A DNA stretch of 62,155 bases, counting the filler, from Hausera hauseri (lineage: Eukaryota): NCBI GenBank assembly GCA_046269625.1. It is 12 parts of 12 records of this genome, joined end to end, with 100 filler letters (N's around TTAATTAATTAA, not from the genome) between each part and the next. Parts side by side here need not be neighbours in the genome. Positions count along the whole stretch, not along the records: positions 32,077 to 37,294 come from JBJURY010305166.1; 11 more parts are not named here. The stretch is one strand, 5' to 3'. Made by a program: the position numbers and the translations under genes. Shown one piece after another: positions 18,650 through 52,010 of the stretch (position 1 is the first letter of the stretch; each line of letters begins with the position of its first letter). Below the pieces are notes generated by a model. That model did no database searches. It was not told the origin of the DNA and was given only the letters and a program-made list of their open reading frames with translations.

Positions 18650-21600
18650 TGCGCCATGTCCCCTTTCTTTTCTCATCCTTTCTAATAATAAACACGTCCA
18701 CACATTAAGGTTTACAGACAAACAAACTACTCATATTCTTTATACTGAATTGTCCTCCTATTTCGGCTTTTCTGATTTTTACCTTATGCACAACGGTCTA
18801 ACTCTGCAACCTTACGACTCTTTCATCCTTTGCACCCGAGAAATATTTCATTACTCTCACTGTCCATTTTCGCACCCGTGGTGGATCAGACCTCGATCCT
18901 TCTACTGAACACTTAACAAAAACCAGGTCTGGTCGTCGCCCTCTCGACCCTACACCATCAACATCTCCAAACCTTCCGTGTAAAGACTTTTTCCTCGATA
19001 AAACGAACTCGAGCCGAACTTAGCTACAATTTTATCTTCAATGGCTCAAAGCCAATTACATTACAGATCCCTTTCTGCAGGCTAACAGTTTAGTGCTGTT
19101 ACTCCCAGCCAACATCAAACAGCAGATAAGTAGCTTGGCTGACATACTCTCCTCCTCAAGCCCGTATGATATGCTGTACGAATCGGTTCTACATATCACC
19201 GATCCTTCTATCGACAGCATAATCCAGAAGTACTTTAACGAACACGCCATTGGAAATAAAAAACCATCAGATTTCCTTAAAACGGCCATCTCACAACTAA
19301 GCTGTTTAGGCGTGACTCCGACGAACAATGCTGATCTTCTTCGTCGATATTTTCTCGCATCTCTGCCAACCTCCATCCGAGCGTTGCTTACTGTAGTAGA
19401 TGACTCTACTGCCCTCGAAAAGCTCGCCTTATTGGCAGACAAAAGCTTCGATATTCTGCAGTCCAATAACTCGCAGCCTGTAGCCGCAGCAACTGCTTAC
19501 ATACTGCCAGACAACACTTTATTTGCACAACAACTAAACATGATGCAGAAACAATTCGATATCCTACAACAAGCAATTTCTGCAATCACTGCCCAACTCA
19601 GCGACTTATCTGTGCCACGAGGAAGCGAAAATCGTATTTCCCGCGATCGCAGTTTTTTCAGGCACTCTTCTCGTCCTAAATCTAAAGAGGGTAAAATGGT
19701 GTGCTTCTATGACAAAAAATTCCGCAGAGATGCGAGGAAATGCCTTTTAGGCTGTCAATTCTACGATGCACGATATTCCGTAAACAATCCAATCTGATTC
19801 TATTACGCAAAGTACCAGTCCTAGGCTAGGTCATGCGTGCCAGAATGTAAACATTATAAAAGGAATTCTTCTCCAACTTCTTCGCCTCCGCGCACTCACC
19901 ATTCCTCCTCTTTTTACCATTAAGTCTCAAAAAACCAGTAATGCCACCATATGCCACGGCACATTTTGGTACAGACAATATAGTTCAAACTACTGGCCGT
20001 TTCAACACCGTTTCTGCAGTCTTTCTGTTGAAAGCTGATTTGTTATTTGGAGATACATCACAGATAGATTTCCTTATTGATTCAGGAGCTGCATTTTCAC
20101 TTCTTCCTTTGTCTTTCGCTTCTACATTTAACACAGTTCTGTCTCCTCCACTCTTCACTGTTGTGGTCAACCTTTGAACATTGTAGGTACCACAAAGCTG
20201 CCCTTCTCATTCTACAACTTACCAGGGAAAATTTCCTGGAATTTTCACATAGCCAACATCAGGTCGTCCATAATAGGCACCGATTTTTTGGCTGCATACG
20301 ATATGTTAGTCGACTGAAAGCATAAATGCCTTCTGCGCAGAGATTTCACTGCCAATTCTAACAAATACTCACCAAACGATCAGCCGAAAACTTTGTCTTC
20401 CTCAGATCGTTCAAATATCAATGTGACATCCTGTCCATCGGTTGACAACAACGCGTTCAACATTTCATCAATATTTTCAATCTCGTCAAGTGGGAACAAA
20501 TAAATCTTAAAACATTCGGCTGAACAAAATGTCGTTAATGAATCACCTAGTCTTTCTACATCGATTACAGCAACTGACTCTTATAATGATATGCCATCAT
20601 CATTCTCATCATTAGATTCTGACCTTAAATCCTACATTAAGACTTCTTGTTCCCGCACTCTTAAGAAGTACATTAATTTCAAACCGCATTCTACAACATA
20701 TCACCACATAGTCACCGAACACCAAAGACCTATTAGACAAAAGGTCAGACCACTGTCACCTCGCAGACGAAAAGCCGTTGAATCAGAGTTCAACGAACTC
20801 GAAAAAGCGGGCATTATTCGACGATCTAAATCACCATGGGCTTCGCCTTTGCATGTTGTGACGAAAAAAATGGCACATACAGACAATGCTGTGATTATCG
20901 GCAGTTAAATAATATAACAGTCATGGATGCTTATCCTTTACCGTTAATAAATGACATCCTGCATAGCCTCACCAACACGAACACGTACTCCACAATTGAC
21001 TTGCATAAGGCATATCATCAAATCCCCGTTGCACCTGATGATATTCCAAAAACTACTATCATTACTCCATTTGGCCTCTACGAATATATCTTTATGCCAT
21101 TTGGTTTGCATAGTGCCTCTCAAACTTTGCAACGGCACACTGATACTGTACTCTAAGGCCTAGATTTCGCTCATCCATATATTGATGACATACTAGTTGC
21201 CTCTACCTCTGTCAAACAACATCAAGAACACCTTCGTATCACTTTTTACCGATTACATCACAGCAATTTGCAAGTCAACTTCGCCAAGTGTAATTTCTTT
21301 CAAAAACGTGTAAATTTCCTAGGTCACGTCATCACTCGTGACGGCCACTCTACACAACCGGATCGACTACAACAATTAAAGAATATAACGCTACCAACAA
21401 CTACCACGGACATGAGAAGCTTTTTAGGCACACTCCACTTCATCCACAAATACGTGCCTCATTGCTCTGAACTCACGGCACCTTTTGCACATTTATTTTC
21501 AGGAAAAAGAGGCAGTTGATCCACTAAACTCCTGATCTGGTAACCAAGTTTGACCACTTGCGCGAAGGTATTAAAACCGTTGAATTACTGTCTTACATTA

Positions 21601-21967
21601 AACCCAAGGTAGATCTTATACTTGCAACCGATGCCTCAACCACAGCTACTGGTGCTGTACTACACCAGATCTTTAATGGTATCGACGAGCCATTAGAATT
21701 TTATTCTAGGAAACTAACACAACCTGAGAGCCGTTACTCCACATTTGATTGCGAGTTACTTGCCATAGTTCTGGCAGTAAAACACTTCAAACACTTACTT
21801 CTCTCTCGTCCATTCGTAATTCAAACTGACCACAAGCCTCCGCTTCACATCATGTCGTTAAAAGAGCCATCACCAAGGAAAGAGAGACATATGTAGTATG
21901 GCCATCAATGCGCAAAGATGTACAGGACTGGGTTAAAGAATGCATAGCCTGTCAAAAATACAAAATC
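18650..21967 (+). mobile_element. Ty3/Gypsy retrotransposon (CsRn1/Boudicca-like), copy 1: Ubl leader - gag - PR - RT - RH - partial IN; decayed
   Basis: Gag KPSDFL..FLASLP..LEKLALLADK with C-x2-D-x9-C-x3-C knuckle; FLIDSGA; SPWASPLH, DYRQLN, YIDD; TDAS..RYSTFD.ELLA..TDHKP; WPSMRKDV..CIACQ after a deletion. Confidence 0.93.
19093..19797 (+). CDS. gag: Gag core of Gypsy copy 1 (the true ORF begins upstream and is disrupted)
   Basis: ORF track; clear homology to 27525-28340. Confidence 0.85.
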   Translation: MLLLPANIKQQISSLADILSSSSPYDMLYESVLHITDPSIDSIIQKYFNEHAIGNKKPSDFLKTAISQLSCLGVTPTNNADLLRRYFLASLPTSIRALLTVVDDSTALEKLALLADKSFDILQSNNSQPVAAATAYILPDNTLFAQQLNMMQKQFDILQQAISAITAQLSDLSVPRGSENRISRDRSFFRHSSRPKSKEGKMVCFYDKKFRRDARKCLLGCQFYDARYSVNNPI

Positions 21968-27216: not shown

Positions 27217-30200
27217 GCATACGAACATTTTGCTCATATTATATCACAGTAATTTTCCTTCCATGTTTTTAGCAATAACCAGCATATAAAAACCATAATA
27301 GCTCAACTCATCGACAGAGCAGAGCTCTTATACAACTCTTTATCCTCCTTATTTAATACTTCCGACTTCTACTTCATATATGAGGATCCTACTATACCTC
27401 CTTCCGACTCCCTTTTACTATTCGCATATCACCAATATCCGATCATCCATTTCACGCTCCACTTTGGCCTTCGGGATGGATCGGACCCAAATCCATTTTT
27501 CTCGGATGATATATCTACAAATACATGCAATATCTATCGTTTACCAAACTCTCAACAGTCAGGAGCTTTCATAAATCTACCTTCCGTAAACCATGGCTCC
27601 AATTCCACCAACAGTGGCTAAAGTCTAACAACACCACTGACTCTTTCTTGTGTGCCAACAGTCTTTTAATTCGTCTACCTGCTAACGTCAAGCAGCAGAT
27701 CAGTAAACATCTCTAAACTGCTCCAATCCTCGACACCTTACGAAACACTGTGAAGCTGTACTCCATATCACGGATCCTTCGATATACAACATCATGCAAA
27801 AATACTTGAACGACCATGCAATAGGAAACCAAAAGCCATCTGACTTTCTTCAAACGGCCATATTGCAACTTAGCACCTTAGGTGTAACGCGTACGAATAA
27901 TGCGGACCTAACTCGCCGTTATTTCTTGTTGTCTTTCCCCACCTCAATCAAAACATTGCTTATCGTCGTCGCGAATCTTCTGCTATTGAAAAATTGGCCA
28001 TAATGGCTGATAAGTCCTTTAAAATTCTCCATAAAAATAACTCTCTTCCAATTGCGGCTACAACCACACACGCGCCACCTATAGACACAACATTTTCACT
28101 CAACAGTTGCAAATGATGCAACAATAATTTGACACATTACAGCAGTCAATTTCGGCCATTACCATCAAACTAAACAATCTTAATTGGCCTCGGCAGTGAA
28201 ACCACAATCTTCAAAGGAGCGAAGCACTTCAAAACACTCTACGCGATCCATTTCACCTGACGGACGCATGGCTTGCTTCTATGATACGAAGTTTCGAAAG
28301 GGTGCAAGGCACTGTTTCTTAGGCTGCCGATTCTACAGCAAACCATTTGTATCTGCCATAATAAGTACCAGTCACAGGCCAGATCGTGTGTGCCTGGTTA
28401 CAAATATTACAAAAATAAATCTCTTCCTTTTTCCTCCCCTTCTTCTTCTCCAAATTTTAAAAATCTAATACTACCGCCAGATTCCACTGCACATTCTGAT
28501 ATAGGCAACATATTGCATTTTTCTGGCCGTCTTAATACCACCTCTGCAGTCTTTCTGTTGAAAGCTGCAATCTTCTCTGATAATATAGGCCATGTGGCGA
28601 CTATTGTCATTTAAGCAACCTGAACATTACAGATGCCTATCCGCTACCACTCATTAAAGATATCCTTCATTGCCTCAATAACAACATTACCTATTCTACT
28701 ATTGATCTGCACAAGGCCTATCATCACATTCCTGCTGCACCTGATGATATTCCAAAAACTGCTGTCATCACACCATTTGACCTTTATGACTATATCTTCA
28801 TGCCTTTCAGCCTACGTAGCGCATCTCAGACCTTTAAACGCCATATTGATACTGTACTTTCAGGTCTTGATTTTGCTCATCCATATATAGACGACATTCT
28901 AGTCGGTTCCACATCCTTCAAACAACATCGTGAGCATCTCCGAATTATTTTCTGCAGATTGCATAAAGCAACCTGCAAATTAATTCCTCCAAATGTAATT
29001 TCTACCAGAAACGCATCAACTTCTTAGGCCACATCATTACTCTCGATAGTCATTCCTCTCAGCCTGGTCGTTTACAACAGTTAAAAAATGTGACACTACC
29101 AATCAGTACCATCTACATGAGGAGTTTTGTAGGGACACTGAATTCTGTACACTAATACGTTCCACACTGAGGCACCTTTGGCACATCTCTCATCCGGGAA
29201 GAAAAGACAATTAATCCACTGGACTCCTGATCTAATAAACCAATTTGATCGCCTTAGTGAAGGTCTGAAAACCGTTGACATTTTGGTTTTCCCAAAACCC
29301 AACGCCGAACTGATACTAACCACCGATGCCACCATCACAGCCACTGGTGCAATATTACCTCAGATATACAATGGTGTCGATGAGCCGTTAGAATTCTATT
29401 CCCGAAAGCTCACGCAACCAGAAAGTCGATACTCAACATTCGGTCGTGAGCTCCTGGCCATAGTTCTAGCGGTAAAGCACTTAAAGCATTTGCTTCTATC
29501 ACGTCAATTTGTCATCCAAACCGACCATAAGCCTCTACTTCATATCATAATGTTAAAACAGCCATCGCCCAGACAAGAATGACAAATATCATACCTGTTA
29601 ACACTTAGCTTTTCTATGAAATATATTTCAGGCACCGAAAATTTAGTATCAGACTTTCTATCGCGGTCGGTCAGCTCAATTACAGTTCAGCCAATTTTCT
29701 CCTCTGAAATTCAGAGAAGTAATCAGCCATCGTCTGATATTCTCGAAGCTTTTAAATCTGTTGAGATCACTGGTGGCATCGCCTACGACTCATCCGACTC
29801 AACTAATAAAAAAATCATTCTTGCTCCATCGTTACAAAAGACAGCTTTCACTCACTTTCACTCACTTCATCATCCTGGTTCGAAAGCCACATTTCGTCTA
29901 CTAAAATGCCACATTGTATGGCCAACTATGCGTGCAGATGTACAGGTTTGGGTTAAGGGGCGTGTAGCATGTCAGCAATATAAAGTCCATAAACACTTCA
30001 AACCACCACTTTACCACTTCCCTTGTACGCATCGTTTTGACGCTGTTCATTTGGATTTTGTCGGCCATTTACCATCCGACAACGGTTATCAATACATTTT
30101 ATCTATGATAGATAGCGCTTCTCGCTGATCGGAAACCTTTTCTCTTCGATCATCCAATACCGATTCGGTAGCAGATGCCTTTGGTTCACCACGTCACATT

Positions 30201-31500
30201 ATAACGGACCAGGGTCCGTAATTTGAAGCTGCTCGTTTTAAATCTGTGGTAAAACACTTGGGATAGTCCATTTCAATACAACACCGTACCATCCTTAAGC
30301 AAATGGTCTTCCTGACAGATTTTACTGTATTATGAAGATTTCCTTAAATATCTTGGCAAACAATAATCATAATTTCACTTCAATTCTTCCTCTTGTCTTA
30401 CTCGGTTGGTGTAACAAGCCATCCACCACTACATGTTGTGCTCCAGCTGAGGCTTTTTTTGGGACACCAATTCGTGCTCTATTTGAGCTTTCCAACCTCG
30501 ATGAAAGCCCTTTAGATGAAGATATTTGTGCGGCACAGTCCCACTTTGTCGATGTTAGCTCAAACACCTTTTGCCGCCTTATAAATAAAGACAAATCGTA
30601 TATCAGAGGACTTATACTCAGCTAAGTTTTTATGGCCGAAGGATCCGTCACCTTCTGATTTCCGATCCCAGTACTTTGACCCTTATAAACTACTTAACCT
30701 TTCTTTTCACACCGCTATGATTTTACGTAAGGGCAGACCTCAAAAGGTACATATTACTAACCTTAAGCCAGCATTCTTCGTTGACAATGACCAGGATAAC
30801 AGCCCTGTTTCAAATCCTAACGCTAACTTCTCTCACCTCGAGCCATTATCTAATTTCCTCGATGATTTTGATCCGTCGCAGCAATCACTCTCGCGGCACA
30901 ATCAGCTCTCTTCACTTTTGTCATCGTCCACTGCTCCTTCACCACTTACTTAGCCGTCATCGCCTGCACATCCACAACTCATTTCACCTTCATCGCACAA
31001 TTCGCTTTTATCTTAAGTCTTACCTTCTTCGTGTGATGTTTTTCTTTTTCAGCTTCTTTTCCACTTTTACATCTTCATGATGCATCCTCCCAAAGCACCA
31101 CAAAATCTACAGCATCTCTCCCTCGAACAACTCCACAAGCAACAGCAATATCTAACAGATCACGCCAAGTGACATTTAGAACCTACATTAGGGAGACGTT
31201 CATATATGGAATCAAACGTCTGACATACCAACATCGAAGAGGTACAAGCTGTTCCTTTTCTTACGATATTCTACGTTTATTTTCCTTTCTTTATAGTCTT
31301 CATATAGCCACGCGAAAGGGGGTGATATAGTGCCTGAAATGTGGTTGCACTGGAGAGATTAGCGGAACGGTGAGGATATTTTCCCCACCATGTGAATACA
31401 CTTTTAATTTTGTTAATCTGTTATTATAAGTTTCAAATTAATAATTATGGAATAAGAATAGAAAAACTGTAGTTTATATATGCGGAGTTTGAATGTACGT
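27217..31500 (+). mobile_element. Ty3/Gypsy (CsRn1-like), copy 2: Ubl leader - gag - (PR deleted) - RT - RH - IN - PPT - start of 3' LTR
   Basis: Homologous to copy 1; HPYIDD, TDAT..RYSTF.RELLA, HSLHHPG..W..CQ, HLDFVGHLP..IDSASR; PPT gcgaaagggggtga near 31312-31325. Confidence 0.93.
31312..31325 (+). promoter_or_regulatory. Polypurine tract of Gypsy copy 2
   Basis: Purine run downstream of the integrase tail, followed by TATAGTG (possibly a mutated TG LTR start) and a change in composition. Confidence 0.6.
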
Positions 31501-32076: not shown

Positions 32077-33400
32077 GGGTGTAGCTGCCATTGGAATAGT
32101 ATTTTAGATCGGCAGCTTCTGCGCGGCATACTGGACATGTAGTTTTTCCATTCTCTAATGTCCATTTTTCTAAACAGAACCTACAATATTTGGGGCATTC
32201 GTTTTCCTCCTTTTCCCATTTTTTATCGTCTAAATCTACTCTCAGCATAATTTCTATGGGTTCTAGGATTAATCCATCTTCCTCTTGGTATAGGTAAGCT
32301 GCAATTCTTTTTTGTTTGGGATTTATCGAGCTCTTTTTCGGATCACATCCTACAGGTATTAAGGTCCAATCGCTGATAGTATCTCGATCTAAATCGGGAA
32401 CTTCACCAGTCGACTGGTATTTCTGGTATTGCTTCTTTAACATCGCCTTTACTGATTTGTCTACGGGCACCAAGAGTTTACCATTTTTTCTTGATTGAAA
32501 TATCGGGGCAACATATTTTCCTATCTTGGGATTCTCCCAGACGTAGGTATTTTCGTAAACTTGCCGTGCGGGCGTCGCTTTGACAAAGAACATTGCTTCT
32601 TTGATTTTCTGCTTACTATAGTATTCTGTAGCTATTAGCATTCGGGGATGATCTGCTGTGGTAGCGTAATGGACATTTTCCGTGGACGTCTTTTTCCGTA
32701 AGACGTTTATTTCGGTTATGTGTTCTTTTTTGTTGTCCGGTTTCTTCATTGGTTTATTGACGTATATTTGTGTGTCTGGTTTTGAGTTTTCTTCCGTTTG
32801 GTTTTCTCGCTTACGTGTCTGTATGGGTTCTGAACGTTTTCCGATTTTTGTTTTTCTTCTAATCTCCTATCTTCTTGCTTGCTTTTTTTCTTAAATAAAT
32901 AATCAAAGAAGGATGTCTTCCTTTTAGTCGTTTTGCCACTTTCGGTTTCTGGGTTCTTATTGTGTTTCAAATATCTCTGAGAAGTTTCAGGTATTCTAAA
33001 CGGATAATCCTGTGTAGCGTAGCTTGTACTGGGTCCTGCCTGGATTTGCCTTTGATTTTCTATCCTTTTGGTTCTTGATCCTTGTATGATTATTTGATAG
33101 TTCCATTCTGGAATAATCTCGACGCTTCTGGGTGGAGAATATGGGCAAAAATGTCTGCGATAACGTGTGTTTAAGTCTTGGATCCTTGGGAAATTTAGTA
33201 GGTTCTGTCCAGGGTTATTGGGAATCCATTCATGCTCCCATTTAAGCCCAGCATTTATATCCCTTAGGTATTGGGATCTTTGACTGGCGGTTAGTATTCT
33301 ACTGATTTTAATATTTCCTTCTGTCATGACCTCTATCCTTAGCGTAAACCGGCCTTCCGGGGTTAATAGAATATGGCCCTTTCTTTTTTTGTCTTTGATT
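32077..33400 (-). pseudogene. Accessory ORF ending in a C3HC4 RING finger (first half of the RING deleted in this copy)
   Basis: KYCRFCLEKWTLENGKTTCPVCR; the full RING is visible in the paralogue at ~40515-40655. Confidence 0.8.
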
Positions 33401-33409
33401 TGTATTTGT

Positions 33410-34407
33410 TTAAACTACGGTTGGGTGGTATTCCAATTCTCTTATTCCAGCTAAGTGTTCTAGCGGTATGTTTAATTTTCTTATTATTCTTTCTACCTGA
33501 TACCCCACTAAGACGTATCCGCAGAAACATTGTGCCACTTCTTGTTGTATCATTTTGAGATCCTTTCCTTGCTTCAATTGGTCTCTTTTAATTCCAGTGA
33601 CTTCTGCGTACGTTTCGAGTATTTTCTTCCTTGGAGTAATAATCTTTGAATAAATTTCGACTCCGTTCTCTTCCCGAATGGATATTTCGATTGGAATATA
33701 GTCCTCTTCTCCTTCGCCGTAATTTACTGCTACAACCCTAATGTTCCTGTCGTCCGCTACCAACCTGAACGAATATAAATGATTTTGGCGTTCAACTTCT
33801 GTAGGCGTTTGTCTAAATTTTATAGGGGATAGTGCGGTGAGTATTGTTTCTTCTTTGGTCGTTTCGATCATCATTTTGACCGGTAGGGTAGCTATATGAA
33901 ATTCTAGTTTGTAATCCTTGAAATTCCTGATATCGAATACGAACGTACTGAACCGACTCTGCCTTCCTCGGAAGGAATCCCATTTTTGTTCTTTCAGCCG
34001 ATAATATATTTCTCCGTCGGCTAAATGTACGTATATTCTTTGTTGCTCGCCCGATCAATATTGAGCGATCTGTTTAAAGGGATAGACCCTGGCGTCCTTA
34101 TCTTCCCTCCATGCATACAAATATACTGTCCTGGTTTCCTCGGTCATTCCTTTTAGGCCGTTTGGGATTTCGCTGACTTTACCATACTGGGCAAAATTTT
34201 TCCCTTATAATTCATTATTGATTTGTCTGTATATAGATTTGAATTTGGAATTCGCACAGTTACGTTTCTCTGTAGAAATTCGTCGATACTAAGTCGACTT
34301 GCAGCGTTCTCGGTATCGTTTTCAATGTCGACTCTAATTCGGCTCGCATTCTCTCCTGCGTCGATCCTAAGTCGGCTAGAATCCATTTGCGTCTGGTTAC
34401 TTACCAA
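33410..34407 (-). pseudogene. Accessory ORF: unknown N-terminal domain plus REX4/ISG20-like DEDDh exonuclease fold lacking catalytic acids
   Basis: VVAVNYG..ISIREENGVEIYSKIITP..YAEVTGIKRDQLKQGKDLKMIQQEVAQCFCGYVLVGY..IREL follows the REX4 pattern (IALDCE..VSIV..YV.P..VSGI..L..G..VQ.EV..ILVGH..IRDT). Confidence 0.75.
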
Positions 34408-34433
34408 TCTGAAGAAAAAGAGATAAAGGTTAA
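34399..34433 (-). promoter_or_regulatory. Splice acceptor, 4-nt exon and GTAAGT donor (copy A)
   Basis: Minus strand reads TTAAC-ctttatctctttttctt-CAG|ATTG|GTAAGT; the same layout is present in copy B. Confidence 0.65.
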
Positions 34434-34506
34434 TTCTAAAACAAAGGATGGCTTTAAACCAAAACCAATTCTTTGTTTTATGACAGAATAACCTGCTCTG
34501 TAATTG

Positions 34507-35004
34507 TCAGATTATTTTATCATACGGATCTACAGGGTTCTCCAGCTCCCTTAATTCCCACTCTGAATTTTCATGGCGCTTAAAATAACAGTTTTTGGTG
34601 ACTAATCGAAAAATCGCAATTAATATAATGAGAACAACCGTTGACAGCACCGTGATAAATACAATTTGTAGCGTAGATAATCCCATCGGCGCTTGTGTGG
34701 TGACTCGAGTGGTGATCTGCTCATCTATATCCTCGTATGCGTGGGATTCTGTCCGAATCTCATTTAAGGTTAGCAGTGTAATGGTCTGATTCTGTTTATT
34801 CCTTGCACATATTTGTACTATATATTCGGTTTGCGGTTTTAATAAATTGCACTCGGTTTGATAAGTATTGCTAAACAATGTCACCTCTTGATTATTATTC
34901 GTTGTCCGACAATTTATGTATATGTCGTAGTTTTGTTTCTCTTCCACGAAGAACACAATCTTAGATCGATATACCGAATATTTAATGGGAATGCTTTCTA
35001 GCAT
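34507..35004 (-). CDS. FN3-like domain, TM helix and short tail; in-frame continuation of the IN ORF
   Basis: CNLLKPQTEYIVQICA (L.P.T.Y.V FN3 signature) and TM LQIVFITVLSTVVLIILIAIF; separated from the upstream ORF by one in-frame TGA. Confidence 0.8.
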   Translation of the reverse strand: MLESIPIKYSVYRSKIVFFVEEKQNYDIYINCRTTNNNQEVTLFSNTYQTECNLLKPQTEYIVQICARNKQNQTITLLTLNEIRTESHAYEDIDEQITTRVTTQAPMGLSTLQIVFITVLSTVVLIILIAIFRLVTKNCYFKRHENSEWELRELENPVDPYDKII

Positions 35005-37294
35005 TCAGTTCGTAGTGATAATCGTAGTGCTGCGGGTTGTACTCGGCGTTGTGGATGGTTTTCCTGTAGTGGTCGGTTGTAGGAGCTCCCATACTCTGTT
35101 CTTTGGGTGATATCCTCTTAGGAAAACACTTCGTTCACCCGGATAGGTATCGTACAAGTCAAATCGTAGTTCGTACTTTTGTCCTACTTGTACTATGCAG
35201 CAGACTGTGGGACGTCGCTTTGCCAACGAACAATATGTTGGTCTAGGAATAAAGTTGTTAAATGGCGTAAAATGGACTGAGATTTCCTTGTCTTCTGGTA
35301 TTCCAAATTTAGTCTCGATCCGAATGCATTGGTTTCTCAAATCCTTGTGAATTCCAATAATATTATCATCTAAGAGTCTGTTAATCGGATCAGTGCTTTG
35401 AATTATTTCGTCCGTCTTTTCCTGATTGGTGTCCTTTTGTTGTGGCATTTGTATTGTGAGCTCTGAGGCTATGTCGGCTTGAGTTCCAAACTTATAGGAA
35501 TAGAATAGCTGAAAGCTATATCTATAGACTTTCCCGAATTCTAGGTTACAGCATCTCCTGTGGTGTCCGTATGGGAAATCGCATACACTCATTTCATCTC
35601 CAGTGGTTATAAATGTTATCTGAAATCCTATGTGTCTCTGAATAGGATGGTCTGATTCGAACCATGCACATGGCTTTCTCCAATCCATATCCCGTATTCT
35701 GAGTGTCTGTAAATTCCGGATATCCCTTTGTTTGGCGCTTGTTTTCACTGTAGGTATATACGAAACAATTAATGATAAGGCTAAGACTATTTGTACATAA
35801 GATATCGGTCTAGTAACTATCGACGAAGTTTTTACTTCTCGCTGGCGTAAATTGTAACGTTTATTGGGTCGTATTTCCGTCTTGACGACCCTCTGTACTG
35901 ATACTACTTCTTCTTTTCCATTCTTATTGATATACACTGTGGTCGGCGTCACTCGGATGACTTCATACGGTCCTCTACCCGTACGAGTTAATTTCAGCGA
36001 GGTACCTTTTTTGGCTACTGGATAATGTACATAAACCCAATTTCCTTGCTCTATATTATGCGGTTTCGCTTTCTTATCATATTGTTTCTTGAATTGCTCT
36101 TGATATTCTTGAGATAATTCCTTGGCGATTCCCCAACACCTTTTCAATCGCGTTTGTAACACCTCTGCAAAATTTTGTTCTAAATCTTCCGGATTAACTG
36201 TGTATGGTGTCATTCCTAAGTCCGTAGGCAACACGGCTTCACGTCCATACATCATAAAGAATGGTGTAAATCCTGTTGCTGGATGTGGCGTGGTATTAAT
36301 TGCAAATTGTGTTCCTTCTAAAAATTCGTCCAAATCCTTTTGGTCCTTAGCCACTACTGTTGACAATATACGCATGACGGTAGCGTTCATTCTTTCGATT
36401 ATTCCATTACATTGGGGATGATATGCGGTAGTCGTTAATCGCTCGATTTCGAATATCTTAGTGATTTTCTCAAATAATTCACTGGTAAAATTCCTTCCGC
36501 TATCCGTTAATATTTGGTCAGGTGGTCCGTAACGGCAAATAATTCTTCTTACTACAGCTTCTGCCAAGGTTTCCGCTTTTTGATCGACTAATGCTATCAA
36601 CTCGACAAAATGAGTTAATCGATCGATGCACGTTAATATATATTTATTGTTCTTGTGAATTGTAGGAAGAGGTCCTACGATATCCGTCGACATGGCTTGC
36701 ATGGGCCTATCGGGGACATTGATTGGTTTTAATTCGGCCATGTAGTTTTTTGTTTTCTTTTGTTTAGTCGCACACACCTCACAGGCGCTTACCCAATTTT
36801 TTACATCGATATAGATACTAGGCCAAAAATATTTGTTTATTATTCTTTCTAACGTTCTCTTCCAGGACATGTGTCCGGCTAAATACGAGTCATGTTCTGA
36901 CATCAGTACTTCGGTTCGTAAACCTTTTGGGATAACTATCAATTTTCTTCCTTTTCGCTCGTAGTATAAGATGTTTTCTTTGTTTCCATCATTTATGACG
37001 CAATATTTATGTCCGTATCTGCGTAGATGTTTCTTTAACTGTCGCGCTTTTGGTATGATGTCCCTTGTAGCAAATTCTATAATCTGCTGAATAACTTTGT
37101 CGTTTCTTTGTTCCGTTGAAATCTTAATTGTTCTATCTATCGTTAACGCACGTTGGCGGTCTATTATTTCCTCCAGTTGGCCTTTCTTCATTACGGTGAT
37201 TGCACTTGTTTTAGTCCTTAATCTCGATAATGCGTCAGCATCGACATGTTTATTTCCCGGCTTATACTGAAATTCAATATTATATCTGGAAATT
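35005..37294 (-). CDS. pol: Pol C-terminus: integrase fused to a signal peptide, a Cys-containing ectodomain and a Thr-rich stalk
   Basis: YKPGNKHVDADALSRL; HDSYLAGH..CEVC; TDIVGPLP..IDRLTHF..TDSG..YHPQCNGIIER; GPY; then YVQIVLALSLIVSYIPTVKT, two CC-containing repeats and TTTGKPSTTPSTT. Confidence 0.9.
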
Positions 37295-37394
37295 NNNNNN
37301 NNNNNNNNNNNNNNNNNNNNNNNNNNNNNNNNNNNNNNTTAATTAATTAANNNNNNNNNNNNNNNNNNNNNNNNNNNNNNNNNNNNNNNNNNNN

Positions 37395-37470
37395 GCAGCC
37401 TACCTTATTAAATTTCGTGTACGGTACCACAAACAGTTTAACTCTTCATTTCCGTCGAATCCAACAAAAA
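37395..37470 (+). pseudogene. C-terminus of Polinton minor capsid (penton) protein
   Basis: FVYGTTNSLTLHFRR resembles the typical penton ending. Confidence 0.6.
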
Positions 37471-37474
37471 CAAC

Positions 37475-37801
37475 ATGATTGATTCTGAAATCGTATCCAT
37501 TTACAGTAAACCCCAGCAGGGCAGTAAACATCCGTATTTCGTTGGTAAACAGTATGGCTCTGGGTGGTTGCATACATTGGCACGTTTAGCATTTACGGTG
37601 TTGAAACGTATCGGAGCCGTGGCAGCAAAAATAGCATAGGACGTACTATATGAAAACAAATCGATTTTACCATCGTTGAAGGAACATGCATTGACCGAAA
37701 TAAAAAGCGCTGCACCGGGAGTCGTTGAATCAGTTAAAAAACAATTCTCTGGCAGTGGCTTGATGAGAAACGCCGTAGATCAACTAGCTTTTCAACCATA
37801 A
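37475..37801 (+). pseudogene. Polinton small core protein with putative adenain cleavage sites
   Basis: QQGS, QYGSG followed by amphipathic WLHTLARLAFTVLKRIG, and FSGSG; one internal stop. Confidence 0.6.
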
Positions 37802-37850
37802 ACAAACGTCGTTGTCGTACGATTTTCGATTGACTGATTGACAGAGACAA

Positions 37851-39086
37851 ATGACATCTGCAAAATCTGAATTATGTATATTTGACAAAGCGGCGCCACA
37901 AGTTGTTATTGACAATGCGGCATTTGAAAAAATCTGCCCCGTTGATTCGGTTTCAACGGACGATAACATTGACATTCAATGCAACATTATGGAATCGGAC
38001 AATGAATAACTGGATTTGAACAATACGCTACTCTATGTAAAAGTCATTGTTAAAAAGGATTCGTCAACGGTTCTCGCTGCAACAGGCACTGTCACACCGG
38101 CCAATTACCTTTTCCTCACATTGTTATAGGAGACTTCACTGACTCTAAACTGCGTCAAAATTGAAGGCAACACCAGTCTATACAGTATCAAAGCACTTAT
38201 TGAAACTGCTCTGAATTAAAGTGGAGACACAAAAACGACTAATTTGACGAAAACCATCGGATACAATGCCACAGCGGCAAACCGTTAGGCATGGGCAGCA
38301 AAATCAAAAGCACTTACAATGTGTGGACCGCTGTACTTTGAATTTTTCGATCAGCCGAAATACCTACTTCCCGGTGTTAAAGCCATGATTCGGTTGAAAC
38401 GCAGCGACAATGTCTTTTGTTTGAAAACCGCCGTTGCACAGCTTAAACCCATACTGAAAATTATTGAGGCACGATTATACGTACGTCGTGTAAAGGTAGA
38501 ACCATCTGTGCTCATGGGCCATCAATTGGGCTTGGAAACACAAAATGCCTGTAACCCGATACAACGCACAGAACTCGTCTTTTACACCACACCGAAAGGT
38601 TCAACAACGTTTTACAAAGATGCACTTTTTGGCGACATGCGATTGCCGAAATTTGTGCTTGTTACATTTCAAACGACTGTTCGACAAACGGGCAGTTATA
38701 CCGCCAATTCGGAAACGTTTACTCATAGCAATGTGAATTACATCAGTTTGGGTCGGAATGCGGATTTCGTTGAGAAGTACAAATAAGATTTCGAGTCTAA
38801 TGATTATTTTTGAACATATATGCAATCTGTAGTGCACAACATGGGTTTGCTCAACAAAAGCATCACCAATGGCATATCGATGGATTTGTTCAAGTCCGCC
38901 TATCTATTTTTCACCTTCGTGCTGGCTCCGGATTACGATGTTGAACAGACTCAACTACCTCAGAAGGGAAACCTACCACTGGAGGTTCACTTTGCCAAAG
39001 CGTTGGAGCAATCTACCGTGATGTACGTTTACGGTCTATTTGATGCTGAGGTTGAAATAACGAAAAAGGGAACCGTCATTGTTTAA
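37851..39086 (+). pseudogene. Polinton major capsid protein (double jelly-roll)
   Basis: KSELCIFD..PQ..I; LDLNNTLLYVKV; ANYL; GPLYFEFFDQPKYLLPGV..IRLKR..FCL; ARLYVRRV; KGNL.LEVHF.KAL; several stops. Confidence 0.88.
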
Positions 39087-39169
39087 ATAAAATCCGGTGT
39101 GTCTCACTCTTTCTTCTTCGTCGTCGTACTATGAAGTAACTTATTACTACTATTACTATTATACTTAAT

Positions 39170-39531
39170 TCACATTTAGCTCCACCGAGCTCATTCGCCA
39201 CGGAAAACTGCTCTTGGGCGTGAAATTTCGTTGCGTGTTTCCACTAGACCGTGTGCCGCGTGATTTACGAAAAGCCGGTGGCTTTATCGTCAATACACAC
39301 ACTTCATCGTTGCCGGACGAACATTGGATTGCTGTGTACGTTCACCATCCAACCAACGTTTTCAGAGTATTCGACACGCTCGAATTTTGCTATCCGTCAT
39401 CGTTATTTTCTCAAATTGAACGGCAAAAATCATACCGTGTTGAATATAATCGGGTTCATTATCAACATCCAATGACTATACTGTGTGGACATTACTGCTT
39501 ATTGTGGCTTACATTACAATCACTTTTCTGA
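39170..39531 (+). pseudogene. Adenain-like cysteine protease
   Basis: F..VFPLD, FIVNTH..PDEHWIAV, VFD, YQHP..LCGHYC (His-Asp-Gln-Cys catalytic residues). Confidence 0.9.
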
Positions 39532-40278
39532 AATATGTGTGTTACAGTGGGGGTAGCCCTTACCGTCTCCCACTATAACAATGTTTTCACTTGAATTTAG
39601 TTTTCTGTATCAACAGGTTAGGACTATTCGTTCTCGAATAGTCTGTTTGTACCTTAAGATTTTATTTGAAATTATACAGTGATGCCTGTACTGTTTGCAA
39701 TAACAAATGCATGCCTCAATTTACCAATTCTTGTCTTGGCTATAGATTTTACGTTGATTTTATCCTTGGGATAGTCTAATTGTCTTTAAGAGACGATGCG
39801 AAACTATATGAGGGGTTTAAATGAAACAAATTTTAATCACCTTTTATTTCACAACTCCACCACAAGATTTCAACATGATCACGAATAAGTTCAGTAGCGA
39901 TAGTCAATAACAATACTATTTCAATTCGGATTTGTTCTAATCGGCTTTAAGGTCGATAGTCGTTTTCCGGTTCATTTTTTTGTCTCTTTTCAGTTGTTCA
40001 CGATCTGCTTATATAGCAGCATGACCGTATCTGGTTAATTTTATTTACAATTTTTTCTAAATTTGTTTTGCATTTTTCTTCAATTATTTGCGTTGTTTAT
40101 TTCAGAGTTACTTGTCAGTTTTAAATTCAGTAAACATCATGATTTATATATCTGTAGAAAACTTCAATCTATTTACATATTGCCATATTCCGGTTTAATT
40201 CTAAATTTATTTTTCTAAATTTATTTTCAGCAGTCGTAATCAGTACAGTCTGATTACAATCGATGCATGTTCAGCTAT

Positions 40279-41729
40279 TTATATCTCTCCTCCCTGAGCG
40301 GCATCCTCGAAAGAGCCTACTGCGTCAGAATAGGTGACGCCTAACGGCCTGGGTTGTCTCAATTGATTCTTTCTTTCTTGTAGATCCGTTTGGGAATCTA
40401 GTTGGCCTTGACTGGTTAATGGACTCGTCTCCAGATTGTAACTATGGTAGGGCTTGATTCGAACAACTCGGGTGTAACTTCCGTCGGAGTAGTATTTTAA
40501 TTCAGTGGCCTCTGCCCGACACACTGGAAATGTTGTTTTTCCATTGTCCAGTGTCCACTTTTCCAGACAATCTCGACAGTATTTGTGGCGGCAGATCTTG
40601 TTATCCAAAACCACGTAACCTTGTCTCAGGTTGCCATCGCATACAGAGCATTCATTATCTTCTTTGTCCCATTCGTCTCTATCTAAGTAAACATGGATCG
40701 TTAATTCAATGGGTTCGAACACAAGATCATCTTTGTCTTGATACAGGTATCCATGAATTACTTTCTGCTTAGGGTTAATTGAACTTTTTCGTGGGTCACA
40801 GTTTACTTCTATTAGTGTCCAGTCTGCCATAAGGTCTCGATCTAAATTGGGAATTCTTCCTTCTATTCGATATCTTCGATAATGTTTCTTTAGCAATATC
40901 CGGATTTGCTTATCTACCGTAACTATTACTTTTCCTCTCCTCTTAGAGCGGAAGACTGATGTGAGATAATTTCTTAACTTAGGGTTTTCCTTAAACATAT
41001 GTATTCTCGAAGACTTCTCTTCCTGGGGCAACTTTAATACAAAACATGGCTTCTTTGATCATTTTTTGCTACAGTATTCTGTAGTTGTCAGCATTCTGGA
41101 TAAGTCCTGAGTCGTTTTATAATGGACATCTTCCTTGATATTCTTTCCTACAAGGACACTTACTTCGGCTATCATGGATTTCCTATTTTTCTTCTCTACA
41201 GATTTTACTTTCTGGGAGGTATTTGGTTTGTCTTGTGGGTTTTCATCTTGTGGCTTCTCGTCTTCTCCTTTCTTCTTAAATAGATATTCATAAATAGACA
41301 GCGTTTCCTTGGACTGGAGCTTTTCTTCTAATTTTGTTTCTTTATTATTGTTTTTGCCCTCGATTCCCTTTTGTTTTCTGCCAGAAAATTTGGGGTTCTA
41401 TTAAGCATTTTGTCTTCCTTTTTGATCGCTTGTAATACCGTTTTATTTTTCTCTTGTTCTTCCATAGGTTCTTGTACTGTGATCGTAAGACTATGGCTGC
41501 CCATCGACTGGCCACTTCTGATCGGAGAATATTGTTTGACATTCCTTTTGTATTTGGTATCTATTAATTCGGGCTTCAAGAAGCTGTGCAAATTGTATAT
41601 CGGATTTTTAGGGGCCAATTCATGTTTCCACTTTAATGGTTTATAAATTTCCTGCAGATATTTGGAGCGTTGGCTAGCCGTTAGAAGTCTCGGAATTATA
41701 TTCGAGTCATTGCTTATTGCTTCAATCAT
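40279..41729 (-). pseudogene. Accessory ORF with C-terminal C3HC4 RING finger
   Basis: CSVC-x13-CRHKYCRDC-x11-FPVCR (copy A has CPVCR); frameshifted. Confidence 0.85.
40284..40295 (-). promoter_or_regulatory. Polypurine tract marking the 3' end of the internal region of copy B
   Basis: TTCGAGGATGCCGCTC-AGGGAGGAGAGA-TATAAAT on the minus strand, at the end of the RING ORF. Confidence 0.6.
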
Positions 41730-41733
41730 TAAC

Positions 41734-42674
41734 TTAAAGAAGGCTTCTGGAGCGGTCGGTCGATTTCTTTTTTTGTTCGGTTCCTTCCATTCGTTCTTGG
41801 ATTATTGGATGAGTGGCCATTTCCCTAAGTCCGGCAATATTTGAATCGGATATTTCTAGTAACTCGACGGATCGTTGCACGTTATATCCGGCCAACATAC
41901 AACCATGCAGACAATGATCCAACTCTGAGCGAATTTGTCTACTGTTTTTTCCTCTTATGAGCTGCTCTCTTCTTAAACCGGTTACTTCTGCATATGATTC
42001 TTGGACATGTTTCCGGGGGCTTATGATTGTAGCGTATATTTCGATCCCATCCCTTTCTCTAATAGATACTTCGAAGGGTATTCCATATCTATCATCTCCT
42101 CTGCCACAATTTATCGCGATGATTCTTATATTGCGACCATCTTGGAATAGTTTATATGACTGACGATGTTCATCCTCTTCTACCTCAGTTGAAATTTGTT
42201 CAAATTCTAGGGCTGGCAAGTGTAGATTACAATCTTCTCTGTAGGTCACTTCGAACATAAGTTTGACAGGAAGGGCTGCTACTCTAAATTCTCGGCCGTA
42301 TTTGACACGTTCCAAACCTTGTCTGTTTATTTTAAATGTACTGAACCGGTATTGATGTCCTTCGTTGGAGTTCCAAGGTTGGTTTTTTATTCTATAATAT
42401 AGTTCTCCGTCGGCTAAGTGGATGTATATATCTTGAGTTTTAGCTGGTCGGTTTTGGATTAATTCCTTTAAAGAGTATCCTTTAGCTTGATTATCTTCGC
42501 GCATTGCGTAAAGGTAGACTGTACGATTCTCCTCTATAATGCCTTTTAGATCATTGCGGATTTCGCTGATTTTTAAAATTTCGATATAGGTTTTTGCTTG
42601 TAAGGCTTCGGTTATCCGTCTGTAGATAGATTTCGATTTTGGAATAAATACTGTCGGTTATCCATACTTACCAT
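41734..42674 (-). pseudogene. N-terminal domain plus inactive REX4/ISG20-like exonuclease (copy B)
   Basis: IIAINCG..VSIRERDGIEIYATIISP..YAEVTGLRREQLIRG..CLHGCMLAGYN..LREM. Confidence 0.75.
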
Positions 42675-42700
42675 TCTAAAAAATAGAAAATAAGGGTCAA
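42666..42700 (-). promoter_or_regulatory. Splice acceptor, 4-nt ATG exon and GTAAGT donor (copy B)
   Basis: Minus strand reads TTGAC-ccttattttctattttt-TAG|AATG|GTAAGT. Confidence 0.68.
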
Positions 42701-42772
42701 TCCTAAACAAAGTATTGTGCTAAATCTGAACCAATTCTTTGTTAGATGGTGGAATAACCCGATCTGTAATTG

Positions 42773-43660
42773 TCAGGTTATTCCATCATTGATTTTCCCC
42801 TGTGGCACCATGACCCTTAATTCCCTCTCAATATTTTTAGGACGCTTATTACAGCAGTTGTTGGTAATAAATCGTCAAAACGCAATAAAAATTATGAGTG
42901 CAAACGTTGACGTTCCATTAATCGATATTATTGTCAAGGTTGTCCATTTAGTTAGTTTTTGTGTTTTAGCGGCAGTCGTAATTTCATCTTCCATTTCCTA
43001 GTTAGTTAGTGGTTTCGTTAAACCAATCTTATTTAGAGTCCGTACCATAAACGTTTTACTTTGTTTATTCTCTGCACCTATTTGTATTATATAGTCTGTT
43101 TTGGGTTTTAAATAGGTACATTTGATTTGATGGCTACCCTTGGCCAGTATCACTTTCTGATTATTATGTTATTATTATAATGTTCGGCAGCTTATTTTTA
43201 CGTCGCATTTAAGTGTTTCTTCCACTACAAACGTTATCTCATATTGTTTTGTTCAATATTTTACAGGAATCATTTCTAGATCCTTCTGAGGTAACCCGGT
43301 TGTTCGGAGGATTCTGGTGGAAGTTGAAGTAATTGTATTCGTCTTCGCAGTCGTAACTCTGCTTGATACCATCTTAGGTGGAATTCTCCAAATTGGACTT
43401 CCCAATTAGTAACTTCCCAGGAAAATACTCGACTGGTTTGGTCGAACTTTATATAAGTCTAATCGATTTCTATATTCATATACCTGAGGCAACTTACAAC
43501 ACTTATTCGGTTTTTCGGCGTGGATCTGACAATACTGCTGATTATGAGCTTCCTTGTCCTTTTCCATGAATTGAACCGTGATTACTCTTCTTTTCATTAA
43601 CCGTCCTTTTGTGTTTATTTGGACACAGTTGTTCTTTGGGTCTTTCGTTATACTAGCCAT
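42773..43660 (-). pseudogene. Ectodomain - FN3 - TM membrane protein (copy B)
   Basis: NNCVQINTK..YC..KCC..YEYR; Thr-rich stalk; CTYLKPKTDYIIQIGAENK; hydrophobic segment followed by NCCNKR. Confidence 0.78.
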
Positions 43661-48612: not shown

Positions 48613-49532
48613 CCAGTAGTTCAGAGCAAAATGTTCGTGCTGTTCAGCGCATGGTGATAGATGATGCGCGGATCAAGGTCAATGCGATTGCAGAAACCCT
48701 TCACATCTCAACAGGTACAGTTCACTCCATCTTCCATGATCATCTACAGATGAGTAAGGTTTGTGCCTGATGGGTGCCAAAATCGCTTTAGGTGTTTGAC
48801 AAGCAGAGGCGATTGACAACTTGTCAGGAGCTTTTGCACCGCTATGAAGAAGATCCGGAGGAATTTGAGGCAAGGATTGTTACAGGTGATGAGACGTGGG
48901 TTTATGATTACCAGCCTGAATCAAAACAGCAAATCAAGGTGTGGATCAAGAAAGGAAATCTTCCACCGGTAAAGTTCAAGACCACCAAGTCAGCTGGAAA
49001 AACAATAGTCACAGTTTTCTGGGATTGTAAGGGTGTTGTGTTGGTGGACTTTTTGCCACGGGACAACAATGACAAGCCATTATTACTCTGGATTATTGGG
49101 GCGTTTGCGAGAGACTGTGAAGAAGGAGCGTCGTGGGAAAATAAGTCATGGTATTCTGCTCCAACATGATAATGCACCTCCTCACACCTACCATGTTTCA
49201 TCCGCTGCTATTCATAAATGCGGTTTTGAACTTTTGCCTCACCCACCCTATTCCGCAGACCTTGCCCCCAGTGACTACCATCTGTTTTCAAATCTCAAGA
49301 AAGCGCTGGGTGAAAACAGATTTTCAGATGATAATGAACTGAAAACCTTTGTTAATGGCTGGTTGCATGATCCGGCACAAAACTTTTATTTTATGGGGAT
49401 TCATGCACTTTACACATGATGGTATAAATGTATTGATGTAAGGAGTAGTTATCTAGAAAAACTATAAATAAATTATTTGTCTCATTTACTTGCTTCTGGT
49501 ATTTTGTCAAAAATTTTTGAACGCCCCTCGTA
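48613..49532 (+). mobile_element. mariner (DD34D) transposon remnant with 3' TIR and TA
   Basis: WVPK, IVTGDETWVY, TVFWD, QHDNAPPH, HPPYSADLAPSDYHLF; ends tttttgaacgcccctcg-TA; frameshift and stops. Confidence 0.95.
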
Positions 49533-51774: not shown

Positions 51775-52010
51775 CTTCATTATTTCTGTTGGCAAACCCC
51801 AAGTATCTTGGAATGATTCTCGATTCCTTGTTATCGTGTGCAGCGTTTCCAACTAATTCCAAAACTTCATCGGACAAGTGTTCAAAAACAGCAGCCAAGT
51901 AAACTGATGTACGGGATCCAACTCGTTCAGCGTTGTTTCCTTTTCTCAGAAGTCCGGAGATTCTTCCGACTGGGGGTTGAAGGCCAATTTTGCAATTTCT
52001 GCCTTTGCTT
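51775..52010 (-). pseudogene. H2A: Histone H2A fragment embedded in an unrelated ORF (51677..52252)
   Basis: [63 protein letters not shown]. Confidence 0.9.

What the first reader, a model, noticed from the sequence alone, without database searches (positions are those of the whole stretch)
34399..34510. Conserved acceptor - 4-nt start-codon micro-exon - donor ahead of the accessory ORFs
Seen in both copies on the minus strand: branch-like TT(A/G)AC, a 17-nt pyrimidine tract, YAG, then ATTG (copy A) or AATG (copy B, 42672-42675), then GTAAGT. The non-coding DNA after the TM stop is also conserved (TGACAATTACAGA..GGTTATTC..AACAAAGAATTGGTT). Reading through the donor opens the exonuclease ORF. 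Inference: alternative splicing lends one ATG to different accessory products, as in complex retroviruses.
Basis: partly seen in the sequence, partly recalled or inferred. Interest (0 to 1): 0.7.

Follow-up and report, generated by a model that had tools for sequence, protein, structure and literature searches.

The report
Retrotransposon junction mixing readthrough and splicing
In two decayed copies of an animal jumping gene, a 110-base stretch packs a leaky stop signal, a likely RNA hairpin and two splice sites in front of one extra gene, which suggests two routes to make that protein rather than a shared start codon for several.

Summary
The motifs are real and far beyond chance. The branch-tract-YAG and the GTAAGT are the best acceptor and best donor in each copy, and the cassette occurs nowhere else in the window.

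The 4-nt exon has ATG in only 1 of 4 family members (residue before Val-Ser: L, M, K, L). The 'accessory ORFs' are frameshift fragments of one ORF, intact as an 870-aa relative (cupin-like, catalytically degenerate DEDDh-like, RING), with its own Met just after the donor.

A hairpin follows, and its 3' arm holds the branch point. Copy A and the two relatives keep the accessory frame open across acceptor and donor; copy B does not.

Best model: a Ty3/gypsy element with a Pol-FN3-transmembrane fusion expresses one accessory ORF both by a spliced subgenomic RNA and by leaky-stop readthrough. The donor's partner is unidentified, so the micro-exon is unproven. All function is inferred: two DNA copies, no RNA data. 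New variant of known mechanisms.

The parts
35005..37294 (-). Copy A: end of RNase H, integrase, then in frame a hydrophobic signal-like segment and the first part of an ectodomain (Pol fused to an env-position protein); contig ends at 37294, so gag, RT and 5' LTR are absent
   Evidence: Integrase_H2C2 E 3.6e-18, rve E 1.1e-13; hydropathy peak at residue 492; ORF
34510..35004 (-). Copy A: FN3-like domain, stalk, transmembrane helix and short tail; same frame as pol, separated by a stop at 35007-35005 that copy B lacks
   Evidence: Pfam fn3 E 0.013, below cut-off; Atlas best hits FN3-family, 0.92; hydropathy 3.18; alignment
34497..34509 (-). Copy A: leaky-stop context TGA CAA TTA CAG A ending the transmembrane ORF
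   Evidence: 13 of 13 identical in B; identical to the TMV-TGA test sequence printed in PMC2754532; 17 of 6843 stop triplets in the window are followed by CARYYA
34427..34494 (-). Copy A: long RNA hairpin shared with B (extends to 34499-34419 in A's own fold); its 3' arm holds the branch-like TTAAC
   Evidence: moderate support
34409..34433 (-). Copy A: 3' splice site (branch-like TTAAC, 17-nt pyrimidine tract, CAG)
   Evidence: rank 1 of 391 AGs
34405..34408 (-). Copy A: 4-nt spacer ATTG between acceptor and donor; candidate micro-exon, no ATG
34399..34404 (-). Copy A: 5' splice site GTAAGT, read as Val-Ser in the accessory frame
   Evidence: rank 1 of 196 GTs; frame
32077..34386 (-). Copy A: single accessory ORF from its own ATG (34386): cupin-like, DEDDh-like, linker, RING. 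Broken by 3 frame breaks (near 34245, 33412, 32754) and 2 stops; cut off by the contig end
   Evidence: domains
42773..43660 (-). Copy B: decayed ectodomain, FN3-like domain and transmembrane segment; seven internal stops in the frame that ends at the same TGA
42666..42775 (-). Copy B: the same junction (TGA CAA TTA CAG AT, hairpin 42760-42694, TTGAC, tract, TAG, AATG, GTAAGT); stop-to-donor spacing 104 nt against 105 in A
40279..42665 (-). Copy B: single accessory ORF from its own ATG (42665) to the polypurine tract; frame broken before 42654 and at 4 further places, 1 stop
40284..40295 (-). Copy B: polypurine tract overlapping the last codons of the accessory ORF
   Evidence: P0001 ends at the same place
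39539..40283 (-). Copy B: probable 3' LTR, ending in CA inside a short inverted repeat; one copy only, so unverified
   Evidence: inference from position after the polypurine tract

Best explanation
The 110-nt stretch is a compact expression junction of a Ty3/gypsy retrotransposon that carries ONE accessory ORF behind a Pol-FN3-transmembrane fusion. Two routes reach that ORF. Route 1 (inferred): a donor near the missing 5' end splices to the strong acceptor and gives a subgenomic mRNA for the free accessory protein, started at its own Met just past the donor or at an upstream exon. Route 2 (inferred): on unspliced RNA some ribosomes read through the leaky UGA-CAA-UUA-CAG stop and continue in frame across acceptor and donor, giving a membrane-anchored form with the accessory domains on the cytoplasmic side. 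The hairpin pairs the branch point and so probably holds splicing down, which a retroelement needs to keep full-length RNA; it may also stimulate readthrough. The GTAAGT is a real U1 site, but most likely regulates the acceptor or is used only in part of the transcripts; it does not supply the start codon. Shown: the motifs, their conservation, the frames, the single ORF. Inferred: all use in the cell.
For: Splice sites rank first in both copies and the cassette is absent from the rest of the window. Both close relatives (2 of 2 above 40% identity among 10 hits) carry a Phe/Leu-rich run then Val-Ser ahead of the folded domain, in a region modelled at pLDDT below 50, which favours a nucleotide-level constraint. 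The stop context is identical in A and B over 13 nt and equals a TMV test sequence that was read through (PMC2754532). In A the stop, Val-Ser, own ATG and domain start share one frame. P0002 aligns to A from residue 13 (34443, upstream of the branch point) to 34254 without a frame break. P0001 and P0002 stay open for 32 and 41 codons between Val-Ser and their own Met: chance 0.114 and 0.062, about 8e-4 with the two frame matches (my arithmetic). A and B each fold alone into the same hairpin, with 11 shared pairs. One ORF: P0001 covers all fragments in order.
Against: In B the stop is not in frame with Val-Ser (104-nt spacing) nor with the accessory ORF, and readthrough would end at the donor after 34 codons. 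B is decayed (4 frame breaks in 2373 nt, so about a 1 in 6 chance of one in this stretch), but its hairpin is stable as it stands, so the spacing could be native. Hairpin statistics are mixed: z -3.3 and -2.3 for the long regions, -2.9 and -0.8 for the 80-nt regions; joint folding is reached by 206 of 1000 column shuffles, and by 25 of 1000 only after I chose the gap to favour it. Codon-position differences after the stop (9, 5, 11) do not separate coding from non-coding. The bases before the stop lack the adenines that favour readthrough. The open linkers fit an upstream coding exon as well as readthrough. P0001 has Ala where the others have the Arg that carries the acceptor AG, so its acceptor phase may differ. 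No DNA for the relatives, no RNA data, and host splice consensus unverified. In Tca2 a similar-looking stop plus structure gave no detectable readthrough in yeast.
Confidence: 0.45

Rival explanations
1. Splicing only. The accessory ORF is made from a spliced mRNA with an upstream coding exon, as CERV is in Cer1. The 4-nt segment is a true micro-exon in some transcripts, joined to a second acceptor just before the folded domain. The leaky-looking stop is incidental or adds only a short tail to the transmembrane protein.
For: Strongest motifs. A phase-0 CAG at 34270 in A falls at a Phe-Leu/Phe-Gln that P0001 and P0002 also have, just before the domain start. B's readthrough frame ends at the donor. 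Precedent: 5-exon cerv mRNA.
Against: Does not explain the 13-nt stop context matching TMV, nor the frame kept upstream of the acceptor in A and P0002. The 34270 site ranks only 10th of 188 AGs downstream of the donor and is absent from B.
Confidence: 0.3
2. An internal promoter or a trans-splice acceptor starts the accessory mRNA here; the conserved bases are promoter elements or an outron end, and GTAAGT closes a very short first exon.
For: Internal promoters drive env in Oikopleura Tor elements, and a junction promoter was found in Tca2. No upstream donor can be seen, because both contigs lack the 5' end. Whether the host trans-splices is unknown.
Against: Does not predict open, in-frame sequence upstream of the own Met in A, P0001 and P0002, nor paired conservation with variable loops.
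Confidence: 0.1
3. Readthrough only. The stretch is coding linker plus stimulatory hairpin, and the acceptor- and donor-like motifs are by-products of Phe/Leu/Arg/Val/Ser codons.
For: Frame evidence; TMV-type context.
Against: The best acceptor and best donor of each contig lie 4 nt apart, shuffles almost never give this, and conservation stops exactly at the sixth donor base in a region with no confident fold.
Confidence: 0.08
4. One reading: a 4-nt exon lends one ATG to several accessory ORFs by alternative splicing, as exon 2 of HTLV-1 does.
For: B has ATG directly before GTAAGT; HTLV-1 exon 2 holds the Tax and Rex initiation codons and joins several acceptors.
Against: Met before Val-Ser in 1 of 4 members; one downstream ORF, not several; own Met present in 4 of 4; no shared in-frame downstream acceptor.
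Confidence: 0.05
5. Chance or shared ancestry without function.
For: Only two DNA copies, 60-65% identical overall.
Against: Shuffle tests, ranks, local conservation peak and the matching peptide run in two more members.
Confidence: 0.02

Closest known systems
C. elegans Cer1 / CERV (PMC10309623, passages)
   Same: [quoted passage not shown]
   Different: CERV has five ordinary exons and shares peptides with Gag; no leaky stop, FN3-transmembrane fusion or 4-nt spacer appeared in the passages seen. Sequence homology to CERV was not tested.
TMV-type (CAR-YYA) readthrough; SIRE1 pol-env stop suppression (PMC3159437, PMC2754532, PMC7026636; SIRE1 only as cited in PMC2194720 and PMC2829016)
   Same: Stop followed by CAA-UUA-CAG with an in-frame ORF behind it (copy A); benyviruses pair this context with a local stem-loop
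   Different: Here the stop is UGA, lies after a transmembrane protein rather than after gag or pol, lacks 5' adenines, and overlaps splice signals; readthrough is not measured
Deltaretrovirus exon 2 (HTLV-1 tax/rex; PMC4488940, passages)
   Same: Acceptor, short exon and donor ahead of the accessory region
   Different: HTLV-1 exon 2 holds the initiation codons and feeds several ORFs; here ATG is not conserved and there is one ORF
Bdelloid Juno and Vesta elements with DEDDy ORF3 (PMC5408684, first fifth and passages)
   Same: Gypsy-like elements with an exonuclease-fold extra ORF, expected to be expressed from spliced messages
   Different: Those are RNase D-like DEDDy with intact catalytic residues; this one is ISG20/REX4-like, lacks the ExoI acidic pair, has cupin-like and RING domains, and follows an FN3-transmembrane ORF
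Errantiviruses (PMC13524379, passages)
   Same: Gypsy pol followed by a membrane protein
   Different: Their Env is an F- or gB-type fusogen; here it is an FN3-like type I membrane protein fused to Pol

Membership tests
Ty3/gypsy LTR retrotransposon | Integrase downstream of RNase H in pol | tested here: met
   H2C2 and rve domains follow the RNase H end; best full-length relatives are gypsy Pol proteins. The RNase H end was recognised from recalled motifs.
Ty3/gypsy LTR retrotransposon | gag, protease, RT, primer site and paired LTRs | not testable with these tools
   Both contigs lack the 5' half; only a polypurine tract and a probable 3' LTR in B
Errantivirus (env-bearing gypsy) | F- or gB-type fusogen after pol | tested here: not met
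   No fusogen family in Pfam; FN3-like and transmembrane instead
HTLV-type start-codon exon | Conserved ATG inside the short exon | tested here: not met
   Met in 1 of 4 members
HTLV-type start-codon exon | Several separate downstream ORFs reached by alternative acceptors | tested here: not met
   One ORF in P0001; no shared in-frame acceptor
U2-type splice sites / micro-exon | Branch motif, pyrimidine tract, YAG; GT donor matching U1 | tested here: met
   (consensus recalled; host consensus not verified)
U2-type splice sites / micro-exon | Both sites used in one transcript (junction reads) | not testable with these tools
   No RNA data
TMV-type readthrough signal | Stop followed by CAR-YYA | tested here: met
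   Both copies; definition
TMV-type readthrough signal | Downstream ORF in frame with the stop | tested here: inconclusive
   Met in A, not in B; P0002 co-linear with A from 34443, but its stop is not visible
TMV-type readthrough signal | Measured readthrough | not testable with these tools
   Needs a reporter or proteomics
Structure-stimulated readthrough (alphavirus, benyvirus type) | Conserved stem-loop starting about 7-9 nt after the stop | tested here: inconclusive
   Stem starts after 7 nt in A's own fold and after 12 nt in B and in the shared helix; statistics mixed
Active DEDDh exonuclease | ExoI Asp-x-Glu and ExoII Asp | tested here: not met
   Asn-x-Gly/Ala in A, B, P0001 and P0002, against Asp-x-Glu in the 7 distant hits aligned
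DEDDh fold (ISG20/REX4-like) | Sequence profile match to solved members | tested here: met
   Profile of alignment A2 hits ISG20L2, E 6.8e-22; 7 of its 9 rows are distant relatives, so this link is transitive

The most novel reading that the evidence does not exclude
One hairpin couples two decoding modes. Folded, it hides the branch point and promotes readthrough, giving a membrane-tethered FN3-receptor-like protein with an inactive nuclease (RNA-binding) domain and a RING ligase on its tail. Unfolded, it frees an acceptor and a 4-nt micro-exon or ratchet-like donor that give the soluble form. This would be a retroelement using leaky termination and micro-exon splicing at the same 110 bases to send one anti-host or RNA-handling protein to two places in the cell.
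Probability: 0.2. Interest if true: 0.75.

Novelty: new variant of a known kind. Interest (0 to 1): 0.5.

Why it matters
Retroelements usually reach downstream ORFs by one device: splicing, frameshifting, readthrough or an internal promoter. If both routes are used here, this is a compact and testable case of readthrough and splice control sharing one RNA element. The carrier is itself unusual: a gypsy lineage with an FN3 membrane protein fused to Pol and a cupin-like / dead-exonuclease / RING accessory protein. I found no description of it in 9 paper searches, which cover open-licence papers only. As first stated (a shared ATG for several products) the finding does not hold.

Tried and rejected
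(1) More DNA copies: protein scan and DNA-pattern scan of bacterial and archaeal genome contigs found nothing, as expected for an animal element. Viral and metagenome contigs stayed unchecked.

(2) Word-based search with B's exonuclease-like ORF: 0 of 960 candidates. With P0001: only itself among 7295. With A's pol fragment against longer proteins: 187 hits, 120 listed; none of those 120 matched the FN3-transmembrane or accessory regions (best E 0.055). So no fused form was seen, which is weak evidence either way.

(3) Names and cluster sizes for P0001-P0010 could not be obtained.

(4) Rfam: 0 matches at E up to 1 over 32077-43660.

(5) Test whether P0002's residues are compatible with A's hairpin pairs: 11 of 14, P 0.125 (Watson-Crick) and 0.29 (with G-U). 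Not significant and not used.

(6) Joint folding on the plain sequence alignment: not better than shuffles, 206 of 1000; the 111-column window ranking in the same call does not single the junction out.

(7) Codon-position test: inconclusive.

(8) Shared downstream acceptors at 33128/41518, 34021/42414 and 34227/42620 were rejected: they are out of phase with the donor and explained by conserved codons.

(9) The post-stop peptide as a second membrane helix: hydropathy 1.5, 1.7, 2.1 and 0.3 in A, B, P0001 and P0002 against 3.2 for the true helix; not consistent.

(10) Atlas search with P0001 residues 55-430: only leads under 0.9, exonuclease families.

(11) The host was not identified; it is an AT-rich animal by gene content (inference).

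Full report
Setting. The window is 12 unrelated contigs of 4-7 kb joined by N-padded linkers. The finding lies in contig 32077-37294 (copy A); its twin lies in contig 37395-43660 (copy B). Both are minus-strand 3' halves of a Ty3/gypsy element. A has integrase domains running in frame into a hydrophobic segment, an FN3-like domain (Pfam fn3 E 0.013, below cut-off; Atlas 0.92) and a transmembrane helix. B carries the same ectodomain with seven internal stops, then the accessory region, a polypurine tract and a probable 3' LTR. Both copies are dead, so their shared bases record selection before insertion. The host is unknown; the gene content suggests an AT-rich animal (inference).

The observation. 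Every motif is at the stated coordinates. On a simple score of my own, built from recalled splice consensus, the acceptor ranks 1 of 391 AGs in A and 1 of 300 in B, and the donor 1 of 196 and 1 of 166 GTs. The cassette (branch motif, tract, YAG, GTRAGT within 30 nt) occurs twice in the window, in these copies, and in 3 of 2000 and 0 of 2000 shuffles. Identity from stop to donor is 85 of 111, tied for best window against a median of 60%, and it ends at the sixth donor base. The splice signals are not chance.

One ORF, not several. A profile-free search of 1.84 billion representatives with B's exonuclease-like ORF gave 10 hits, two of them close: P0001 (870 aa, 45%) and P0002 (333 aa, 42%). P0001 covers, in order, every accessory fragment of A and B and ends where B meets its polypurine tract. 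A frameshift-aware alignment finds 3 breaks and 2 stops in A, and 4 breaks and 1 stop in B. The protein has a cupin-like first domain (model of P0002, mean pLDDT 59; best Foldseek E 9.5e-4), an ISG20/REX4-like domain and a RING. All four close members lack the ExoI Asp-x-Glu that the 7 aligned distant hits keep, so 'exonuclease' should read 'probably inactive exonuclease fold'.

The ATG is not conserved. P0001 and P0002 begin upstream of the folded domain and show the same peptide run as A: Arg, a Phe/Leu-rich stretch, then Val-Ser, the reading of GTA AGT. The residue before Val-Ser is L in A, M in B, K in P0001 and L in P0002. All four are compatible with a G before the donor, but only one is a start codon. 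Each member has its own Met after the donor (A 34386, B 42665, P0001 residue 55, P0002 residue 68). From B's micro-exon ATG the frame closes after 20 codons. The DNA of the two relatives was not available, so their splice sites are inferred from peptide only.

What was missed: a leaky stop. The transmembrane ORF ends in TGA CAA TTA CAG A in both copies, 13 of 13 identical. CAR-YYA after a stop is the TMV readthrough signal (passages of PMC7026636 and PMC3159437). The TMV-TGA test primer printed in PMC2754532 matches A over 13 nt and B over 14. That construct was read through, less well than the UAG form (section 6 and passages). Only 17 of 6843 stop triplets in the window have this context, and 1 of 73 long-ORF stops (A; B's frame is too broken to count). 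In A the stop, Val-Ser, own ATG and domain start are in one frame. P0002 aligns to A without a break from upstream of the branch point to 34254. P0001 and P0002 stay open for 32 and 41 codons between Val-Ser and their own Met, each unlikely by chance (0.114, 0.062); with the frame matches this is about 8e-4 by my arithmetic. So translation enters upstream of the donor, either by readthrough or from an upstream exon.

Against readthrough. B's spacing puts its stop out of frame, and readthrough there would end at the donor. Decay could explain this (about 1 in 6 at B's break rate), but it may be native. The 5' adenines that favour readthrough are absent. Codon-position differences are uninformative. 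Tca2 is a warning that such junctions can mislead (passages).

The hairpin. A and B each fold alone into the same long stem, with 11 shared pairs. In the joint structure 15 of 18 pairs are unchanged, 1 changes on one side, 2 on both sides and none is broken; only one of the two double changes lies in a well-supported helix. The branch motif is the 3' arm of that helix, and its A/G difference keeps pairing through G-U, so the branch motif's conservation has two possible causes. Statistics are mixed: z -3.3 and -2.3 for the long regions, -2.9 and -0.8 for the short ones; joint energy is reached by 206 of 1000 shuffles, or 25 of 1000 after a favourable gap choice; P0002 compatibility is not significant; Rfam has no match. 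I rate the hairpin probable, not shown.

The donor. No in-frame downstream acceptor is shared by A and B. A phase-0 CAG at 34270, matching a Phe-Phe-Gln in both relatives just before the folded domain, is the only candidate; it ranks 10th of 188 and is missing from B. An intron cut from genomic RNA would be lost on reverse transcription (established knowledge), so the donor must be used only in subgenomic RNA or act as a regulatory U1 site. True micro-exon use I put near one in three.

Mechanism and scores. Most likely (0.45) one accessory ORF is reached by both a spliced subgenomic RNA and leaky-stop readthrough, with the hairpin restraining splicing. Splicing alone, CERV-style, is the main rival (0.30).

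Comparison and novelty. Each device is known: a spliced accessory mRNA in Cer1 (passages), stop suppression in SIRE1 (seen only as cited), a start-codon exon in HTLV-1 (passages), exonuclease ORF3s in rotifer elements (first fifth and passages), internal promoters in Tor elements (passages). The errantivirus survey PMC13524379 has no occurrence of 'fibronectin', 'readthrough' or 'splic' in its main text. Nine searches showed no paper on this combination or this element type; I saw listings only for papers not named above. No supplements were read; the readthrough-site compilation of PMC3159437 and the element tables of PMC13524379 could bear on novelty, as could repeat databases that were not searchable here. 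Verdict: real feature, wrong first interpretation, new variant of known kinds; interest 0.5.

Noticed in passing
window 34437-34436 and 42704-42703 (minus): A second AG with a T-rich lead, 27 nt upstream of the main acceptor and in the same phase, in both copies; the Arg that carries it is present in all four members. It could be an alternative acceptor giving a 31-nt exon, or just part of the hairpin.
   Followed up: partly
window 34380-34280 (minus): Copy A has about 100 extra bases in frame after its own ATG, made of three Ser-Arg-x-x-Ile/Val-Asp repeats that B lacks.
   Followed up: partly
window near 33412 and 41787 (minus): A and B both change frame, in the same direction, at nearly the same residue of P0001 (356 and 359), beside a shared A-run; P0001 itself is continuous there. 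Independent slippage or a shared programmed shift.
   Followed up: no
window 37395-39539: Copy B sits in Polinton/Maverick-like DNA on the opposite strand, with capsid-like (38289-39086) and protease-like (39169-39531) ORFs; labels recalled from motifs, no Pfam match.
   Followed up: no
window 42693-42668 (minus): In B alone a second hairpin pairs the pyrimidine tract with the acceptor, spacer and donor.
   Followed up: no
window 13654-14968 (minus): ORF resembling a protein-primed family B DNA polymerase of Polinton type (recalled from motifs; no Pfam match).
   Followed up: no
window 15198-18406 (plus): Intronless patchwork of host gene fragments: bestrophin, adenosine deaminase (ADAR-like) and what looks like IFT56/TTC26 (recalled), next to a gypsy element.
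   Followed up: no
window 53602-55827 (minus): Intact 741-codon ORF with a predicted AAA-ATPase and a PD-(D/E)XK nuclease domain, a type recalled as common in bacteria; possible horizontal transfer.
   Followed up: no
window 18378-21967 and 27217-30953 (plus); 1689-5205 (plus): Three other decayed gypsy elements; the first two are about 73% identical to each other. No match to the FN3-transmembrane or accessory regions was found in the parts present.
   Followed up: partly
window 48792-49419; 50771-52330; 57183-61640: Mariner-like transposase remnant; TBP-like and histone H2A-like remnants; a long acidic MAP1/futsch-like ORF with internal stops (labels recalled from motifs).
   Followed up: no
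P0003, P0004, P0006-P0010: Seven distant proteins (21-28% identity to B's ORF) keep the catalytic residues and start at a Met near the domain start; probably accessory proteins of other mobile elements.
   Followed up: partly
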